This document shows positions 6,179 through 30,934 of a DNA stretch of 41,246 bases, piece after piece (positions within the stretch are counted from its first letter, which is position 1; every line of letters begins with the position of its first letter). The notes beneath the pieces were generated by a model. That model searched no databases and was not told the origin of the DNA. It was given only the letters and a program-made list of their open reading frames with translations. Source of the stretch: an uncultured Methanosarcinales archaeon (GTDB lineage: Archaea > Nanobdellota > Nanobdellia > Woesearchaeales > GW2011-AR9); NCBI GenBank assembly GCA_964429715.1, contig CAYSCV010000002.1, positions 1-41,246 on the forward strand, given 5' to 3'. A program made the translations under genes and the position numbers.

Positions 6179-6802
6179 TTAATCCATCACTACTATTTCT
6201 TTAAATGAATAGATAATCCTTTCTTTCTGTAAAAACTTCCCTAATTCTTCTTCTCTTTCTTTAGGAATTAACACTACATTTGACCCATATCTTCTCCCTT
6301 TAAGTTCCCCCAACAATCCTTTATCTTTATACCCTTTTTCATTTCGGCCAAATAATGTCCGTGTCAATCGCAAATATTTTTTCTTATCTTTAGGAAATTC
6401 CCATGTAAATAAATCAAATCTTTCTCCTGTTTGCAGTTCTGCTTTTTTGGAAAACAATAAGATCCCTTCGCTGGCAATACTGCTCTGCAGCTGCCACTCC
6501 TGTAATCTACCCGCTTGCACAGAAAGAGGATAATGAAACCCCAATAATTTCCATTTTTTATAATCTGTAGATTGATAAAAGCGCGCAAATGCTGCTCGCA
6601 CATTTCGTTCTACTGTATCGGCCCGATCACAGTCAATAAAAATATCTATATCACTTTCTTTTTGCAGTTGTCCTCGTACCGCCGAACCATACAAAAATAT
6701 TTTTGAAATAAACTTGTTGAGTGTCCCATCTAAGAACAAGAAACTTAACGCATTCTGTGCATACGCAATCGCGTGCCATGTTTGCTTATTCAATCTCCTC
6801 AC
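6179..6802 (-). CDS. Minimal nucleotidyltransferase (MNT/Pol-beta superfamily) with ~85-aa C-terminal extension
   Basis: 207 aa. G-S-x(n)-D-x-D core LYGSAVRGQLQKESDIDIFID. The C-terminal part (FDLFTWEFPKDKKKYL...NVVLIPKEREEELGKFL) is shared with the second NTase at 8668..9258. Overlaps the upstream gene by 17 nt. Confidence 0.75.
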   Translation of the reverse strand: MRRLNKQTWHAIAYAQNALSFLFLDGTLNKFISKIFLYGSAVRGQLQKESDIDIFIDCDRADTVERNVRAAFARFYQSTDYKKWKLLGFHYPLSVQAGRLQEWQLQSSIASEGILLFSKKAELQTGERFDLFTWEFPKDKKKYLRLTRTLFGRNEKGYKDKGLLGELKGRRYGSNVVLIPKEREEELGKFLQKERIIYSFKEIVVMD

Positions 6803-7217
6803 CTAATTGTTGTAGTTGTTCTTTAATCAACTGATGCAGTTTTTGAAATGCTTTTAACACTATTTCCGCGGCACTCTTGCTCGGTTTGCCATAAATCAAT
6901 TTATTTCTATGCTCTTCAATAAGATACATCGACCTGAAGATATCTTCTTTCATCGCAAATTCCACTCCTAACATTCGCTCGGCTAAAGGCATAATTTTCT
7001 GTTCCGGCTTTGGTGTTTTAAACCACTCATGCTTCACCATCGTTCCGATAGAAATTTTATTGAGCGTGTGCAGATACAGCTCCAGTAAATCTATCGAACA
7101 AGCCGAAGTATGTAATCCAATAGTGGCTGCTCGTTCTTCAAGCCCAACCGCAATAGCTGATTCTATCCCTTGGATATGTTCTTGAATATGTAATTTATGT
7201 ACTTCTTTTGAGGTCAT
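6786..7217 (-). CDS. Small all-helical HEPN-like protein, partner of the NTase (144 aa from ATG at 7217)
   Basis: Helical heptad-like sequence. Near the C-terminus, EEHRNKLIYG sits where HEPN proteins carry R-x4-6-H, but has Y in place of H. Translationally overlapped with the NTase gene. The track ORF N-terminal 22 aa are translated operator repeats and were trimmed. Confidence 0.45.
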   Translation of the reverse strand: MTSKEVHKLHIQEHIQGIESAIAVGLEERAATIGLHTSACSIDLLELYLHTLNKISIGTMVKHEWFKTPKPEQKIMPLAERMLGVEFAMKEDIFRSMYLIEEHRNKLIYGKPSKSAAEIVLKAFQKLHQLIKEQLQQLGEEIE

Positions 7218-7218
7218 A

Positions 7219-7269
7219 TTGGAATAAAAGTTCCAATTCTTTATAAATTTTTTGGAATAAAAGTTCCTA
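7219..7269. promoter_or_regulatory. Two copies of the palindromic site TTGGAA-N6-TTCC(A/T)A bracketing a TATA-like box
   Basis: TTGGAATAAAAGTTCC occurs at 7219-7234 and 7252-7267 (16/16 identical, 33-nt period). TTATAAATTT (7241-7250) lies between them, about 24 nt from the cassette ATG (7217). Confidence 0.5.
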
Positions 7270-7341
7270 ATTTTAAACCACACTATAAGCTGTTCCTAAA
7301 ACAACATAAAGTTAATAAAGAAGCACTTCCCTATTCCTTCC

Positions 7342-8313: not shown

Positions 8314-8370
8314 TGTTAGCACATCTAACAGAAAAGTTTAAATAGTTCTTCATTGTTACCTCAACTAACA
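8314..8370. promoter_or_regulatory. Two copies of the palindromic site TGTTA(G/C)-N5-CTAACA bracketing a TTTAAATA TATA box
   Basis: TGTTAGcacatCTAACA at 8314-8330 and TGTTACctcaaCTAACA at 8354-8370. The second ends on the A of the start codon. TTTAAATA at 8337-8344 is about 26 nt upstream of the ATG, consistent with a leaderless mRNA. Confidence 0.45.
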
Positions 8371-8699
8371 TGATCACTATCGCCCAAATACTAGTCTTCA
8401 AAAAGTCAGCAGATACATTATATTCCTCTGGCGATTACACCTCTGCCACAATCCTTTATTTTAAAACATTATTTGCCCTCCAAGATTTTGTTCTGTTAGA
8501 AAAAATTGGTGAATCCCCCAAAGATCATACCTCTCGTTTTCGCAGTTTAGAAAAGAATTTCCCCGACTTATTCAACGAATTAGATTTAGAATTTTCTACT
8601 TATAGGGATACGTATTCTAAAATTATTGATAAAGAGACATGCATACGCATTAAGAGGCTTGTTGACTATGATCTTACAACCTATAAAATTAAAGCATGA
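8370..8699 (+). CDS. Small all-helical HEPN-like protein, partner of the second NTase
   Basis: 109 aa. HEPN-like opening (ADTLYSSGDYTSATILYFKTLFAL) and a C-terminal YRDTYSK at the position of the R-x4-6-H motif, without His. Overlaps the downstream NTase gene by 32 nt. Confidence 0.45.
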   Translation: MITIAQILVFKKSADTLYSSGDYTSATILYFKTLFALQDFVLLEKIGESPKDHTSRFRSLEKNFPDLFNELDLEFSTYRDTYSKIIDKETCIRIKRLVDYDLTTYKIKA

Positions 8700-9258
8700 G
8701 CTAAATAAAATTGTACAGAAGTATCCTGAACTTCTTGATATCTTAGTCTTTGGCTCACTTGTTCGTGGCAAACAACACCCTTCCGATATTGACATATTAC
8801 TCCTGTTTAAAGAAAAAGTAGATAAGAATATAGAATACCTTGTTAGAAAAACACTTGAAAAACATGCAAAGAACATTTCCCTTATTTCTAAAACAGAACA
8901 AACGGTCTTCGATTCAGCGTTTGATGCTCGGGAGAGTATGCTCTTTGAAGCCAAAAGCCTGCTTACTGGAGAAAATATAGCTAAACAATATGGTTTTTCC
9001 TCATTTGGTATGTTCAAATATCAGTTCAAACAATGGAGCAAACTCCAAAAAACAAAATTTTATTATGCCCTCAACGGTCGTGGCAAGACCGGCATCGCCG
9101 ATCAGTATAAAAGCATCAAACTCTCCGATTCCGTCATACTCGTACCATTAGAACACATCGAAGAATTTCGCAGTTTTCTTGAAACCTGGAAGATTGACTA
9201 TAAATATATCCCTTTGATTATACCTTCTCGATTAGGAAAGAAGAGCATTTTAGAATAG
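8668..9258 (+). CDS. Minimal nucleotidyltransferase with C-terminal extension (paralog of 6179..6802)
   Basis: 196 aa from MILQPIK. Core VFGSLVRGKQHPSDIDILLLF. C-terminal module FGMFKYQFKQWSKL...SVILVPLEHIEEFRSFL aligns with the other NTase. Confidence 0.7.
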   Translation: MILQPIKLKHELNKIVQKYPELLDILVFGSLVRGKQHPSDIDILLLFKEKVDKNIEYLVRKTLEKHAKNISLISKTEQTVFDSAFDARESMLFEAKSLLTGENIAKQYGFSSFGMFKYQFKQWSKLQKTKFYYALNGRGKTGIADQYKSIKLSDSVILVPLEHIEEFRSFLETWKIDYKYIPLIIPSRLGKKSILE

Positions 9259-9650: not shown

Positions 9651-10763
9651 ATGTCCACCCCTCTCTGCCCCTACTTCGCCAAATGCGGCGGCTGTACTGC
9701 CCAACATATCGACTACGAATTACAATTAGAAAACAAAAAGAAACTCGTCCAACGCATCACCAAAATAGATAACGTCAATGTCTTCTCAGATCAACCCTAT
9801 TCCTATCGCAATCGCATGGACTTCATCTTCTTTCCCGGTGGTCTCGGCTTACGAGAACAAGGCACAAAATTTCAAATCATCGATATCGACAAATGCGCCA
9901 TCTCCGAACAACCATTAAATACACTGCTGCAAGAAGTTCGACAATTCTTCCAACACGTCGACGCCTTCAACTCAAGTAAACAGCAAGGCACCAATCGTTA
10001 CGCCGTCATCCGCACAACCTCAACTGGGGATTCTGCTCTCTCTTTCCTCCTCAACGAAGATTCCCCGCAGTTACCCCACGCCATTGAAAAAATAAAATTA
10101 TTCGCCAAACAAACAACCGCCAAGAACATCATCATCGCCGTCGTGCCAAAAAATATTGATAGCAGCACCAGCGAAGAAACCATCATAATCAAAGGCCATG
10201 ACTACCTCACCGAAACGCTTTGTAACAAACAATTTCGCTACTCCTCACAAGGCTTCTTTCAAAACAACACCAACCTGGCTGAACAAATGCAACAATACGT
10301 CCACACTCTCCTAAAATCCTACCCCACAAAACAAGCCCATCTCCTCGACCTCTACGCCGGCGTCGGCACATTCGGTATAATCAACTCCTCTTTATTCAAA
10401 TCCGTCTCCATAGTCGAAAGCTATCCTGCCTCAATCGAACTCGCAAAAATAAACCTCCAATTAAACAACATCACCCACGCCCAAACGCATGTCTTAGATG
10501 CCAAACACCTCTCCCGTCTCTCTTTTCCCTCTCCATTATACATCATCCTCGACCCGCCCAGAATTGGCATGGACCAAAAAACTATCCAAACAATAAAACT
10601 CCTAAAACCCGAACTCATTATCTACATCTCCTGCAACCCTGAACAATTAGCCAAAGACCTGCCTAAATTCTCCAACTACGAAATAAAAAGCGCCGCATTA
10701 TTTGATCTATTTCCGCAGACGAATCATTGCGAAGTTGTGGTTGAGCTTGTTTGGAAGAAGTAG
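9651..10763 (+). CDS. RumA/TrmA-family RNA (uracil-C5)-methyltransferase with a [4Fe-4S] cysteine motif, no TRAM domain
   Basis: 370 aa. CPYFAKCGGCTAQH (Cx5CxxC) plus a later IDKCAIS. SAM motif LLDLYAGVGTFG, ILDPPRIGM, catalytic-Cys block YISCNPEQLAKD, C-terminal FDLFPQTNHCEVVVEL. Confidence 0.85.
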   Translation: MSTPLCPYFAKCGGCTAQHIDYELQLENKKKLVQRITKIDNVNVFSDQPYSYRNRMDFIFFPGGLGLREQGTKFQIIDIDKCAISEQPLNTLLQEVRQFFQHVDAFNSSKQQGTNRYAVIRTTSTGDSALSFLLNEDSPQLPHAIEKIKLFAKQTTAKNIIIAVVPKNIDSSTSEETIIIKGHDYLTETLCNKQFRYSSQGFFQNNTNLAEQMQQYVHTLLKSYPTKQAHLLDLYAGVGTFGIINSSLFKSVSIVESYPASIELAKINLQLNNITHAQTHVLDAKHLSRLSFPSPLYIILDPPRIGMDQKTIQTIKLLKPELIIYISCNPEQLAKDLPKFSNYEIKSAALFDLFPQTNHCEVVVELVWKK

Positions 10764-11479: not shown

Positions 11480-11553
11480 ATTTTTTTGGCGAGAAGGTGC
11501 TTTTTAAAGTTTTCGTACCCATTTTATTGGAAAAATCGCAGGGTCGAATACAA

Positions 11554-11623
11554 GAAGGCAAAGCCTTCTGTACAGAAATGAAGTAGTCTCTTCATTTCTT
11601 GTACCCCACTGCTTGCAGTGGGG
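11554..11623. other. Three consecutive perfect or near-perfect hairpins in an intergenic spacer
   Basis: GAAGGC-aaa-GCCTTC (11554-11568). TACAGAAATGAAG-tagtct-CTTCATTTCT(T)GTA (11571-11603). CCCCACT-gcttgc-AGTGGGG (11604-11623). Read on the minus strand the block is followed by a T5 run. Confidence 0.35.
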
Positions 11624-11662
11624 ATAGGTGCGAGTGGCGAGTTTTCGTTATTTAGAAGCAGG

Positions 11663-28248: not shown

Positions 28249-28615
28249 GGTAGAGTGGCCTAAGCCGCCTTTTGTTAGACCCAAAACAAGCACAAAGCTT
28301 GTCGATAGTCATTTAGAGCATTCTACTATGCGTCTGTAACAGACTTGCACCGGCAAGATCCATTTTCTCGCGGATCTTCTGACATTGCTGTCAGCAAGGA
28401 TTCACCGTTTCATCGTTCCCTATAAAGACGTCAACGGGTTATCTCACTTCAATCACTTGAAGCTTCACCGCATCATCCCTAATTTATAGGACGTGTCGTG
28501 TCTGAGCCAGAGCCAAGGGCTTTCCCCTTCTCACTTCTGTAAGTGGCCTTTTTATGGTGGGCGGACTTTCCTGAGTATCTTTTGCAAGATTCCCGTCGCT
28601 CCTGCCACTGCTACC
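28249..28615 (-). ncRNA. rnpB: RNase P RNA (archaeal type), about 367 nt
   Basis: Minus strand contains CR-I AGGAAAGUCCGCCCACC (P4 5' strand), CR-V ACAAAAGGCGGCUUAGG (P4 3' strand) and GAUGAAACGGUGAAUCC (CR-II/III-like). The ends pair as P1 (GGUAGCAGUGGC / GCCACUCUACC). GC-rich relative to its flanks. Confidence 0.85.
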
Positions 28616-30135: not shown

Positions 30136-30351
30136 AAAAATAATCAAATATGGCTCTTTCCAAAGCTCAGCAATACCATAAAGAATTATTACAATACCAT
30201 TATTGTAACGGTGAACAAGAAATCATCGAAGAAGCTTGGTATCTTGCCGCTTAATTTCTTTACTCCATTTTTAAAATTGGATTTATCTTTTTTCTAAAAT
30301 TAAATTTACTCCTGCTTTTCAAATCATCAATTCATCAAAAAAAGAAAAATA

Positions 30352-30567
30352 TGCGGACGGCAGGATTTTCTCGCCGCAACCTAATAGTCGTGGTGGGCAA
30401 CGTCGCAACATATGCCCGCCCTACTCGCCTAGATTGCTGGCACTTGAACCTGCGAAGGCACTAAGCCAATAGATGACTTATAACGAGTTTATTCATCGCA
30501 CTCTAACTGAGCACTCATCACTCAAATACCTTGAGTCTATCCCATTTGACCACTCTGGCACGTCCGC
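30352..30567 (-). tRNA. tRNA-Leu(CAA) with two introns (55 nt at 37/38; about 77 nt in the T-loop)
   Basis: Exons 30567-30530, 30474-30444 and 30366-30352 splice to an 84-nt class II cloverleaf. It has a 7-bp acceptor GCGGACG/CGUCCGC, D-arm CCA/UGG with a GG loop, anticodon arm AUAGA-CUCAAGA-UCUAU, a 15-nt variable arm, T-arm GCAGG-UUCAAAU-CCUGC and discriminator A. No CCA is encoded. Confidence 0.85.
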
Positions 30568-30632
30568 AACGACAGTGAGGACTGACAGTTCCGAAAAAAA
30601 GTTTTTTTTTCGCTTACTGGCACGTCCGCAAC
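30555..30632. repeat. Perfect 16-nt direct repeat CTGGCACGTCCGCAAC (30555-30570 and 30617-30632)
   Basis: Read directly. The first copy covers the tRNA-Leu 5' end (13 nt) plus 3 leader nt; the second lies 62 nt further upstream of the tRNA. An A9/T9-type palindromic tract lies between the copies. Confidence 0.85.
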
Positions 30633-30691
30633 TAATCTTTTATAGAAAACTATCATTCTTTTTATAAAATTAACTGAAAAATAGATACTTA

Positions 30692-30934
30692 TTATTTTTT
30701 TTCCAAATCAAAAACAACTTTTCGCAACGCCGCTGCTAAATTTGCTTTTATTGCTGTCAGTTCACGACTTTTGCCTAATACATTTCCTATATCTATATTT
30801 GAGAGTCTACTCATCTTTCTATAACTCTCCTCTAAATCATTCTCCGCTTCTTTCACTTTCTTATTCGCAATATCAAAAGCAGTTTTTATCTCATTAAAAT
30901 ACGGTTGCAATATTTTGTGGTATTTTCCAAACAT
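30692..30934 (-). CDS. Small coiled-coil protein, unknown function (80 aa)
   Basis: ATG-started ORF, helical/charged sequence, last gene of a co-directional block of small proteins. Confidence 0.45.
   Translation of the reverse strand: MFGKYHKILQPYFNEIKTAFDIANKKVKEAENDLEESYRKMSRLSNIDIGNVLGKSRELTAIKANLAAALRKVVFDLEKK

What the first reader, a model, noticed from the sequence alone, without database searches (positions are those of the whole stretch)
30352..30567. tRNA-Leu(CAA) gene split by two introns, one inside the T-loop
Minus strand 30567->30352 reads GCGGACG-UG-CCA-GAGUGGUCAAA-UGG-G-AUAGA-CUCAAG | 55-nt insert | A-UCUAU-UGGCUUAGUGCCUUC-GCAGG-UUCAA | 77-nt insert | AU-CCUGC-CGUCCGC-A. Removing both inserts gives an 84-nt class II cloverleaf. 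It has a perfect 7-bp acceptor stem, GG in the D-loop, a 5-bp anticodon stem, loop CUCAAGA (U33, anticodon CAA, G37) and a 15-nt variable arm. The T-arm has the canonical UUCAAAU loop, and the discriminator is A73, the Leu identity base. Insert 1 is at the canonical 37/38 site, and its UUGAGU can pair with the anticodon-loop ACUCAA. Insert 2 interrupts the T-loop; the exact point, 56/57 to 58/59, is ambiguous because of an A run. It folds into a rod (GCCAGCAAUC/GGUUGCGGC and GGCGGGCA/UGCCCACC helices). Multi-intron tRNAs with non-canonical intron positions are rare and lineage-restricted, and gene finders easily miss them. The ORF track shows only a spurious 64-aa ORF here.
Basis: partly seen in the sequence, partly recalled or inferred. 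Interest (0 to 1): 0.8.

Follow-up and report, generated by a model that had tools for sequence, protein, structure and literature searches.

The report
Two-intron archaeal tRNA-Leu gene
This is a real leucine tRNA gene of a very small (DPANN, Woesearchaeota-like) archaeon, interrupted in the anticodon loop and again in the T-loop; this kind of gene is already known but gene finders miss it, and close relatives carry their extra intron at other positions.

Summary
The minus strand 30567->30352 encodes tRNA-Leu(CAA) interrupted by a 55-nt insert at 37/38 and a 77-nt insert in the T-loop. ARAGORN and Rfam find no tRNA in the window. ARAGORN calls an 84-nt tRNA-Leu(CAA) once both inserts are removed. 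One correction: every ortholog has the T-loop UUCAAGU, so the second intron sits at 59/60, not 56/57-58/59, and nucleotide 59 is G. At 59/60 the T-stem plays the role the anticodon stem plays at 37/38. This gives a relaxed bulge-helix-bulge: 5-bp outer helix, 3 of 4 central pairs, a clean 3' bulge and a loosened 5' bulge. Four other tRNA-Leu genes from metagenomes carry T-loop introns that also fit best at 59/60, two with strict motifs. The same intron occurs in three further assemblies, one from a lineage only ~86% identical. Orthologs with identical exons carry their extra intron at 15/16 or 30/31, or have none. Position 59/60 and intron-rich DPANN tRNAs are already published, so this is a new member of a known kind. 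One thing is unexplained: 1-2 tandem leader hairpins, each starting with a copy of tRNA nucleotides 1-13. Splicing and the endonuclease type were not testable.

The parts
30660..30668 (-). TATA-like box TTTATAAAA, the only promoter-like element upstream of the gene
   Evidence: Read from the sequence. It is conserved in all orthologous loci, 23-31 nt upstream of the first GCGGACG copy. Promoter function is inferred and was not tested.
30568..30629 (-). 62-nt leader unit: an exact copy of tRNA nt 1-13, an A/T hairpin (30612-30592), a tail complementary to the copy, and a linker. Function unexplained.
   Evidence: A 16-nt direct repeat GTTGCGGACGTGCCAG lies 62 nt apart. There are 1-2 such units in every intron-bearing ortholog and none in the intronless relative L068. 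The hairpin is conserved with a few compensatory changes. No conserved BHB would excise it.
30530..30567 (-). Exon 1: acceptor 5' strand, D-arm, anticodon stem 5' strand and loop through G37 (anticodon CAA)
   Evidence: Identical in all orthologs.
30475..30529 (-). Intron 1, 55 nt, canonical position 37/38
   Evidence: ARAGORN reports i(39,55) once intron 2 is removed. BHB: outer helix 5-6 bp, central helix CUCA/UAAG 3 of 4 pairs, bulges AG^G and UC^A, inner helix 2 bp. It is 91-95% identical in the orthologs.
30443..30474 (-). Exon 2: A38, anticodon stem 3' strand, long variable arm, T-stem 5' strand, and T-loop nt 54-59 (UUCAAG)
   Evidence: The boundary is set by ortholog T-loops (UUCAAGU) and the BHB register.
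30366..30442 (-). Intron 2, 77 nt, T-loop position 59/60, a G+C-rich rod
   Evidence: Only removal at 59/60 or 60/61 reproduces the ortholog mature sequence, and only 59/60 has a BHB-like register: T-stem 5 bp as outer helix, UUCA/AGAA 3 of 4 pairs, 3' bulge AA^U, 5' bulge AG^U. Rod fold z = -4.0. Identical in L094 and L095. Identical outside the apical loop in L096.
30352..30365 (-). Exon 3: U60, T-stem 3' strand, acceptor 3' strand, discriminator A73. No encoded CCA.
30336..30351 (-). T-rich tract (TATTTTTCTTTTTTTG) directly after the gene, a likely archaeal terminator
   Evidence: Read from the sequence. The terminator role is inferred from established knowledge that archaeal RNA polymerase terminates at oligo-dT.
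28249..28615 (-). Archaeal RNase P RNA gene, the enzyme expected to remove the long 5' leader
   Evidence: Rfam RF00373, 107.7 bits against a gathering score of 84. The syntenic copy in L006 scores 93.3 bits.

Best explanation
This is a functional chromosomal tRNA-Leu(CAA) gene of a Woesearchaeota-like DPANN archaeon. Its transcript carries two endonuclease-type (bulge-helix-bulge) introns. Intron 1 (55 nt) sits at the canonical 37/38 site. Intron 2 (77 nt) sits at 59/60 in the T-loop. That is the structural mirror of 37/38: the 5-bp T-stem with its 7-nt loop substitutes for the anticodon stem-loop as the outer helix of the motif. The archaeal splicing endonuclease would cut at four sites: AG^G and UC^A for intron 1, AG^U and AA^U for intron 2. 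An RtcB-type ligase would join the three exons. RNase P would remove the 62-nt leader, and CCA would be added afterwards. The product is an 84-nt class II tRNA with T-loop UUCAAGU. What is shown: the gene structure, the junction, the motif geometry, and conservation across assemblies and lineages. What is inferred: actual cleavage and ligation, the order of steps, and the enzyme type.
For: (1) Removing both inserts gives a tRNA-Leu(CAA) accepted by ARAGORN. It is identical to the spliced orthologs and 3 nt away, including a compensatory stem change, from an intronless ortholog scoring 61 bits on Rfam tRNA. (2) Orthologs L006, L007, L010, L013 and L068 all lack the T-loop insert and read GGTTCAAGTCCTGC, which fixes the junction. 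(3) At 59/60 the register gives a 5-bp outer helix, 3 of 4 central pairs and an exact 3-nt 3' bulge. All other registers are worse, or need the T-stem opened. The BHB-like conformer lies only 2.3 kcal/mol above the MFE. (4) T-loop introns in four other tRNA-Leu genes also fit best at 59/60. L059 and L042 show strict motifs (4/4 central pairs, outer helix 5 bp, inner helix 5-7 bp). L045 and L046 have only 2 of 4 central pairs. (5) The sibling non-canonical introns in orthologs, at 15/16 and 30/31, have 4/4 central helices. (6) The intron-bearing allele was assembled independently in L094 and L095 (99.7% identical) and in L096, whose flanks are only 84-87% identical. Intron 2 is identical at all 62 aligned positions outside the apical loop, while DNA just 3' of the gene is strongly diverged. 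(7) The context is housekeeping chromosome: RNase P RNA, aRF1, SecDF, NAC, ScpB, GyrA. (8) The literature lists 59/60 and 30/31 as known non-canonical positions (PMC4090602). It also links DPANN alpha4 endonucleases carrying the L3 loop with heavily disrupted tRNA genes (PMC5829648).
Against: The intron 2 motif is relaxed. One central pair is an A.A mismatch, and the inner helix is displaced by one extra G, so the 5' bulge is a 3x1 internal loop. Three of four central pairs would occur by chance in about 15% of random inserts (my calculation, assuming a 6/16 pairing probability per position). No splicing endonuclease gene lies in the window, so its type is unknown. There are no RNA data. The perfect conservation of intron 2 between window and L096 could reflect recent allele transfer rather than selection, because tRNA alleles and the neighbouring TraB gene have discordant relationships. 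The rest of the genome is unseen, so a second tRNA-Leu(CAA) cannot be excluded.
Confidence: 0.85

Rival explanations
1. The T-loop insert is not removed. The gene would be a tRNA pseudogene inactivated by a 77-nt insertion, and another gene would supply tRNA-Leu(CAA).
For: The intron 2 motif is relaxed and ARAGORN and Rfam do not recognise the gene. The rest of the genome is unseen.
Against: The exons are 84/84 identical to the orthologs. The insert-bearing allele persists in two genomic backgrounds about 13% apart, with the rod and junctions intact and change only in the apical loop. The insert lies at the one T-loop position that mimics 37/38, as do other T-loop introns, two of them with strict motifs. 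The orthologous locus is the tRNA-Leu(CAA) gene in all relatives.
Confidence: 0.07
2. Same gene and same mechanism, but intron 2 is cut at 58/59 (or 56/57-57/58), giving T-loop UUCAAAU.
For: The register at 58/59 also gives 3 of 4 central pairs (GUUC/GAGA), and the A run makes these junctions formally possible.
Against: That register uses G53 and leaves only 1 bp of outer helix, so the T-stem would have to open. Every ortholog without the insert has G at position 59. All other T-loop introns collected fit best at 59/60.
Confidence: 0.05
3. The structure is an assembly or chimera artefact.
For: None was found. The window is metagenome-like sequence.
Against: The same 216-nt gene occurs in two other assemblies from different runs, L094 and L095. 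A variant with a shorter apical loop occurs in a third, L096.
Confidence: 0.01

Closest known systems
Multiple-intron tRNA genes with non-canonical BHB introns in Thermoproteales (e.g. Pyrobaculum islandicum tRNA-Pro(UGG) with introns at 25/26, 37/38 and 56/57; positions 30/31 and 59/60 are also listed) - review PMC4090602
   Same: A canonical intron plus an extra intron outside the anticodon loop, including the T-loop. Relaxed hBH / HBh' motifs. Missed by ordinary tRNA finders.
   Different: The host is a DPANN (Woesearchaeota-like) archaeon, not a crenarchaeon, so the endonuclease is probably a different architecture. No sequence similarity of the intron to any other intron was found.
Disrupted tRNA gene sets of DPANN archaea, associated with alpha4-type endonucleases carrying the L3 loop (Kaneta et al. 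2018, PMC5829648)
   Same: The same superphylum. That study includes one Woesearchaeota and one Pacearchaeota genome. It reports increased tRNA gene disruption and incomplete predicted tRNA sets that hint at undetected disrupted genes.
   Different: That work does not describe this locus. The endonuclease of the present lineage was not seen here.
[quoted passage not shown] 2012, PMC3293823)
   Same: Closely related genomes carry different intron sets in the same tRNA gene. A 5' fragment of the tRNA lies upstream as a direct repeat.
   Different: There the fragment is 1.8 kb upstream, with a recombinase-bearing insertion between. Here the 13-nt fragments are 55-65 nt apart, tandem, part of a conserved hairpin, and no recombinase is nearby.
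tRNA intron transposition in Thermoproteales (Fujishima et al. 2010, cited in PMC4090602)
   Same: Recent, lineage-specific gain of introns at new positions in otherwise conserved tRNA genes.
   Different: In that case similar intron sequences are found in different tRNAs. Here intron 2 has no other copy in the window, in 586 kb of related loci, or in IMG/VR.

Membership tests
tRNA-Leu (class II tRNA) | Cloverleaf with 7-bp acceptor stem, long variable arm, 7-nt anticodon and T loops, and a covariance-model score above threshold | tested here: met
   ARAGORN calls the 84-nt spliced sequence tRNA-Leu(CAA). An ortholog differing at 3 nt scores 61 bits on Rfam RF00005 against a gathering score of 29. 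The spliced sequence itself could not be given to cmscan.
tRNA-Leu (class II tRNA) | Leu identity elements: discriminator A73 and the long variable arm; anticodon CAA | tested here: met
   A73, a 15-nt variable region and the loop CUCAAGA are read from the sequence. That these confer Leu identity is established knowledge and was not tested.
Archaeal BHB (endonuclease-spliced) tRNA intron - intron 1 | Two 3-nt bulges separated by a 4-bp helix at the exon-intron junctions, flanked by helices (hBHBh') | tested here: met
   Outer helix 5-6 bp, central helix 3 of 4 pairs (one C.A), bulges AG^G and UC^A, inner helix 2 bp and then 5 more pairs after a small loop. The same holds in all orthologs.
Archaeal BHB (endonuclease-spliced) tRNA intron - intron 2 | Two 3-nt bulges separated by a 4-bp helix at the junctions; relaxed forms hBH / HBh' / BHL are accepted for broad-specificity enzymes | tested here: inconclusive
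   The strict motif is not met. The relaxed hBH form is met: T-stem 5 bp, UUCA/AGAA 3 of 4 pairs, exact 3' bulge AA^U, and 5' bulge AG^U opposed by one extra G. Other T-loop introns at the same position reach the strict motif (L059, L042).
Archaeal BHB tRNA intron | Precise removal restores the sequence of intron-less homologs | tested here: met
   Removal at 59/60 reproduces the ortholog T-arm exactly, and removal of both introns gives the ortholog mature sequence.
Archaeal BHB tRNA intron | A splicing endonuclease able to cut relaxed motifs is encoded by the organism | not testable with these tools
   No tRNA_int_endo domain was found among the window's 43 main ORFs. The rest of the genome is not available. 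Literature reports L3-loop alpha4 enzymes in DPANN (PMC5829648).
Archaeal BHB tRNA intron | A spliced mature tRNA and the released (often circular) intron are detectable | not testable with these tools
   No RNA data are available.
Integration scar (att direct repeat of a tRNA end left by an integrase-bearing element) - considered for the leader units | A direct repeat of a tRNA end flanking an element that carries, or once carried, an integrase | tested here: not met
   A direct repeat of tRNA nt 1-13 (16 nt in the window) is present. However, the repeats are only 55-65 nt apart, tandem, and no integrase or recombinase is adjacent in any allele. No matching viral contig was found. A decayed scar cannot be excluded.

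The most novel reading that the evidence does not exclude
The locus may be a live example of tRNA intron gain driven by one local mechanism. All five insertion points seen in this gene family follow an AG dinucleotide: the leader units after nt 13, then 15/16, 30/31, 37/38 and 59/60. At four of these points the inserted sequence usually starts with U. The tandem leader hairpins built on a copy of tRNA nt 1-13 would then be a previously undescribed element. They could be either the source of the T-loop intron, whose first 10 nt with G59 equal nt 7-16 of one leader unit, or a product of the same duplication or insertion process. Alleles would spread between lineages by recombination.
Probability: 0.15. 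Interest if true: 0.7.

Novelty: new member of a known kind. Interest (0 to 1): 0.4.

Why it matters
Standard tRNA finders see nothing here. A genome bin of this lineage would therefore appear to lack tRNA-Leu(CAA), and such apparent gaps can feed mistaken conclusions about incomplete translation machinery or host dependence in DPANN archaea. The locus also gives a clean natural series: identical exons, with the extra intron at 15/16, 30/31, 59/60 or absent, in genomes 82-87% identical. That series could be used to study how endonuclease-type introns are gained and exchanged. It also illustrates that the T-arm can stand in for the anticodon arm as the splicing scaffold. The mechanism itself is not new.

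Tried and rejected
(1) A third intron made of the 62-nt leader unit. Every register across the 16-nt repeat was tested in the window. All five alleles were scanned for BHB-like motifs. Only palindrome-driven central helices (ACGU, YGCG) appear, and their flanking helices are not conserved, so this was rejected.
(2) Known RNA families in 30250-30720 at E<=10: only noise.
(3) Other hidden tRNAs in the window. ARAGORN with introns finds none at default settings. Relaxed thresholds give only poor calls inside coding regions or weak stems.
(4) A splicing endonuclease gene in the window: none among the 43 main ORFs.
(5) Other copies of intron 2, of the leader unit, or of the tRNA 5' part in IMG/VR viral contigs: none. 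Other copies of intron 2 in the window or fetched loci: none.
(6) A box C/D guide RNA inside the introns. Intron 1 has GUGAUGA and GCGAUGA but no D box. Intron 2 has neither. This was read from the sequence and not pursued.
(7) Overall similarity of intron 2 to the leader array. Local alignment scores are weak. Only the 10-mer at the 5' end stands out (p about 0.001, post hoc). The 3' end similarity is not independent of it, because the two ends pair with each other.
(8) More distant TraB neighbours (TraB 82% protein identity to the window or less). The L097 contig (82%) ends before the tRNA position, so synteny cannot be judged there. In the loci at 66-69% identity (L098-L104) the tRNA is absent.

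Full report
OBSERVATION. It has a 38-nt 5' segment ending in the anticodon loop CUCAAG, then a 55-nt insert, then a segment with the anticodon-stem 3' strand, a long variable arm and the start of the T-arm. A 77-nt insert follows, then the end of the T-arm, the acceptor 3' strand and A73. ARAGORN finds no tRNA in the 41-kb window, with or without its intron option. Rfam at gathering thresholds finds only an archaeal RNase P RNA at 28249-28615. A permissive Rfam scan of 30250-30720 gives only noise. After both inserts are deleted, ARAGORN calls an 84-nt tRNA-Leu(CAA). With only the T-loop insert deleted it calls the same tRNA with a 55-nt canonical intron.

ORGANISM AND CONTEXT. The window has 39.7% G+C and carries ordinary chromosomal genes. 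These include PEP synthase, a tRNA (uracil-5)-methyltransferase-family protein, aRF1, SecD/SecF, a MinD/ParA ATPase, NAC, TraB, ScpB and an intein-containing GyrA. A scan of species-representative genomes with the 5' exon found matches only in Woesearchaeota, Pacearchaeota, Nanoarchaeota and similar bins. The nearest homologs of the neighbouring TraB gene are named Woesearchaeota or Nanoarchaeota where any name is given. No splicing endonuclease gene lies in the window.

ORTHOLOGS FIX THE JUNCTION. Contigs syntenic with the window were fetched through TraB. A metagenome scan used the variable-arm/T-arm sequence. Together these gave a family of orthologous genes with identical exons:
- L006: only the 37/38 intron.
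- L007 and its copies: the 37/38 intron plus a 43-nt intron at 15/16.
- L010 and L013 types: the 37/38 intron plus a 33-nt intron at 30/31.
- L068, a more distant relative: no intron.

All of them read GGTTCAAGTCCTGC across the T-loop. The window's mature T-loop is therefore UUCAAGU, and the 77-nt insert lies after G59 (or U60), not at 56/57-58/59. L068 scores 61 bits on Rfam tRNA against a gathering score of 29. It differs from the window's spliced sequence at three positions, two of which form a compensatory A-U/G-C change in the anticodon stem.

SPLICING MOTIFS. I scored every register against the bulge-helix-bulge geometry: 3-nt bulges, cleavage after the second bulge nucleotide, and a 4-bp central helix. 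Intron 1 has the anticodon stem as outer helix, CUCA/UAAG with one C.A mismatch as central helix, and bulges AG^G and UC^A. For intron 2 only 59/60 works. The T-stem (5 bp) is the outer helix and UUCA/AGAA gives three pairs plus A.A. The 3' bulge is exactly AA^U and the 5' bulge is AG^U. The inner rod, however, starts one nucleotide out of register because of an extra G. This is a relaxed hBH-type motif. The register 58/59 also gives three central pairs but needs the T-stem opened. The BHB-like conformer is 2.3 kcal/mol above the minimum-energy fold. The intron folds into a rod with z = -4.0.

Position 59/60 is to the T-arm what 37/38 is to the anticodon arm, since both are 5-bp stems with 7-nt loops. 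Four other tRNA-Leu genes from metagenomes have T-loop introns, and all fit best at 59/60. L059 and L042 have strict motifs (4/4 central pairs, 5-bp outer and 5-7-bp inner helices). L045 and L046 have relaxed ones. The sibling introns at 15/16 and 30/31 have perfect 4-bp central helices and the same AG^U 5' bulge.

PERSISTENCE. The exact TraB protein of the window is also encoded on two Logan contigs from other runs (L094, L095). These are 99.7% identical to the window and carry the identical two-intron gene. A third contig, L096, has flanks only 84-87% identical, yet it carries the same T-loop intron. All 62 aligned positions outside the apical loop are identical. The apical 15 nt are replaced by a 4-nt loop, and the DNA immediately 3' of the gene is heavily diverged. 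Either the intron is as constrained as the exons, or the allele moved recently by recombination.

Recombination is plausible. On a TraB tree L096 is nearest to L007, which lacks the T-loop intron. L010 and L013 have identical TraB genes but different tRNA alleles. L013 and L016 share a tRNA allele but differ by 13% in TraB. Either way, the intron-bearing allele is maintained in more than one genomic background, which argues against both an artefact and a dead gene.

MECHANISM (inferred). Transcription probably starts downstream of the TATA-like box at 30668-30660, and the gene ends in a T-rich tract. The splicing endonuclease cuts both motifs, an RtcB-type ligase joins three exons, RNase P removes the leader, and CCA is added because none is encoded. 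Because the T-loop is interrupted, splicing of intron 2 probably precedes steps that need an intact T-arm. None of this was tested.

COMPARISON WITH WHAT IS KNOWN. Non-canonical positions including 30/31, 56/57 and 59/60, and genes with up to three introns, are documented for Crenarchaeota and Nanoarchaeota (PMC4090602). Kaneta et al. analysed one Woesearchaeota and one Pacearchaeota genome, among others. They linked DPANN alpha4 endonucleases that carry the L3 loop with strongly increased tRNA gene disruption, and noted incomplete predicted tRNA sets (PMC5829648). In my pooled set, 34 of 62 resolved distinct tRNA-Leu genes are longer than 90 nt. The finding is therefore a new member of a known kind. 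The closest parallel for the variation between relatives is the Caldiarchaeum tRNA-Thr locus (PMC3293823).

UNEXPLAINED EXTRA. Directly upstream of the tRNA lies a 62-nt unit (30629-30568). It starts with an exact copy of tRNA nucleotides 1-13. An A/T hairpin follows, then a tail complementary to the copy, so the whole forms a rod. The window and L006 have one unit. L007, L010 and L013 have two. The intronless L068 has none, and neither do 100 other tRNA genes in 586 kb of fetched loci. The only TATA-like box precedes the first copy. The hairpins contain T4-T9 runs 23-26 nt (32 nt in the longer distal units of L007 and L010) upstream of the next copy. No conserved bulge-helix-bulge would excise a unit.

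All insertion points in this gene family follow AG. Seven of 83 junctions in the mature tRNA follow AG, so four independent sites all doing so has a probability of about 5e-5, though the choice of register is partly informed by the motif. Intron 2, together with G59, starts with a 10-mer identical to part of one leader unit (p about 0.001, post hoc). These are leads, not conclusions.

VERDICT. It is a known kind of gene in a lineage already reported to be rich in such genes. Interest is moderate and comes mainly from the allelic series and the leader hairpin array.

Noticed in passing
window 30568-30632 (minus strand); also L006, L007, L010, L013 upstream of their tRNA-Leu: There are 1-2 tandem 55-65-nt leader units. 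Each begins with a copy of tRNA nt 1-13 and folds into a long hairpin with an A/T-rich tip carrying a T4-T9 run. They occur only in the intron-bearing clade, and their function and origin are unknown.
   Followed up: partly
L007 3218-3398, L010 3231-3400, L013 2055-2225, L006, L068 3110-3193: Orthologous tRNA-Leu(CAA) genes with identical exons carry their extra intron at 15/16 (L007) or 30/31 (L010, L013), have none beyond 37/38 (L006), or have no intron at all (L068). tRNA alleles and the neighbouring TraB gene have discordant relationships, which suggests recombination.
   Followed up: yes
all alleles of the gene; window 30443/30442 and 30530/30529: Every insertion point (13/14, 15/16, 30/31, 37/38, 59/60) follows an AG dinucleotide. 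The three non-canonical introns and all but one of the leader units (L010 proximal starts with C) begin with U.
   Followed up: partly
window 30433-30443 (minus strand) versus L010 proximal leader unit: G59 plus the first 9 nt of intron 2 (GTGCCAGCAA) equal nt 7-16 of a leader unit in L010. The intron's 3' end (GTTGCGGCG) resembles the GTTGCGGACG that starts each copy. This may hint that the intron derives from the leader repeat.
   Followed up: partly
window 30475-30529: Intron 1 contains GUGAUGA and GCGAUGA (box C-like) flanking a small hairpin, but no D box. A related intron architecture is seen in another tRNA-Leu(CAA) (L071).
   Followed up: no
window 35942-39799: The GyrA gene is interrupted by an intein (roughly residues 110-540). 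An intein C-terminal splicing motif lies at residues 516-537.
   Followed up: no
window 9651-10763: This gene encodes a tRNA (uracil-5)-methyltransferase-family protein. It may be the enzyme that methylates U54 in the T-loop that the intron interrupts.
   Followed up: no
window 28249-28615: This is an archaeal RNase P RNA gene, 2 kb from the tRNA. It is syntenic in L006, where the alignment shows a large internal insertion.
   Followed up: no
L005 about 6790-6960: A 23-nt direct repeat of the 3' end of an intronless tRNA-Leu(CAA) plus trailer (CTACCCTCTGCATATTTTATTTT) lies about 150 nt downstream of the gene. It looks like an att-type scar.
   Followed up: no
window 6179-7283 and 8370-9258: Two nucleotidyltransferase (Polbeta/NTP_transf_2) genes each sit next to a small partner ORF. 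They resemble MNT/HEPN-type toxin-antitoxin pairs.
   Followed up: no
window 11540-11640: This intergenic stretch holds two strong hairpins (CAGAAATGAAG...CTTCATTTCTTG and CCCCACTGC..GCAGTGGGG). ARAGORN's only call there needs very relaxed thresholds and is not credible.
   Followed up: partly
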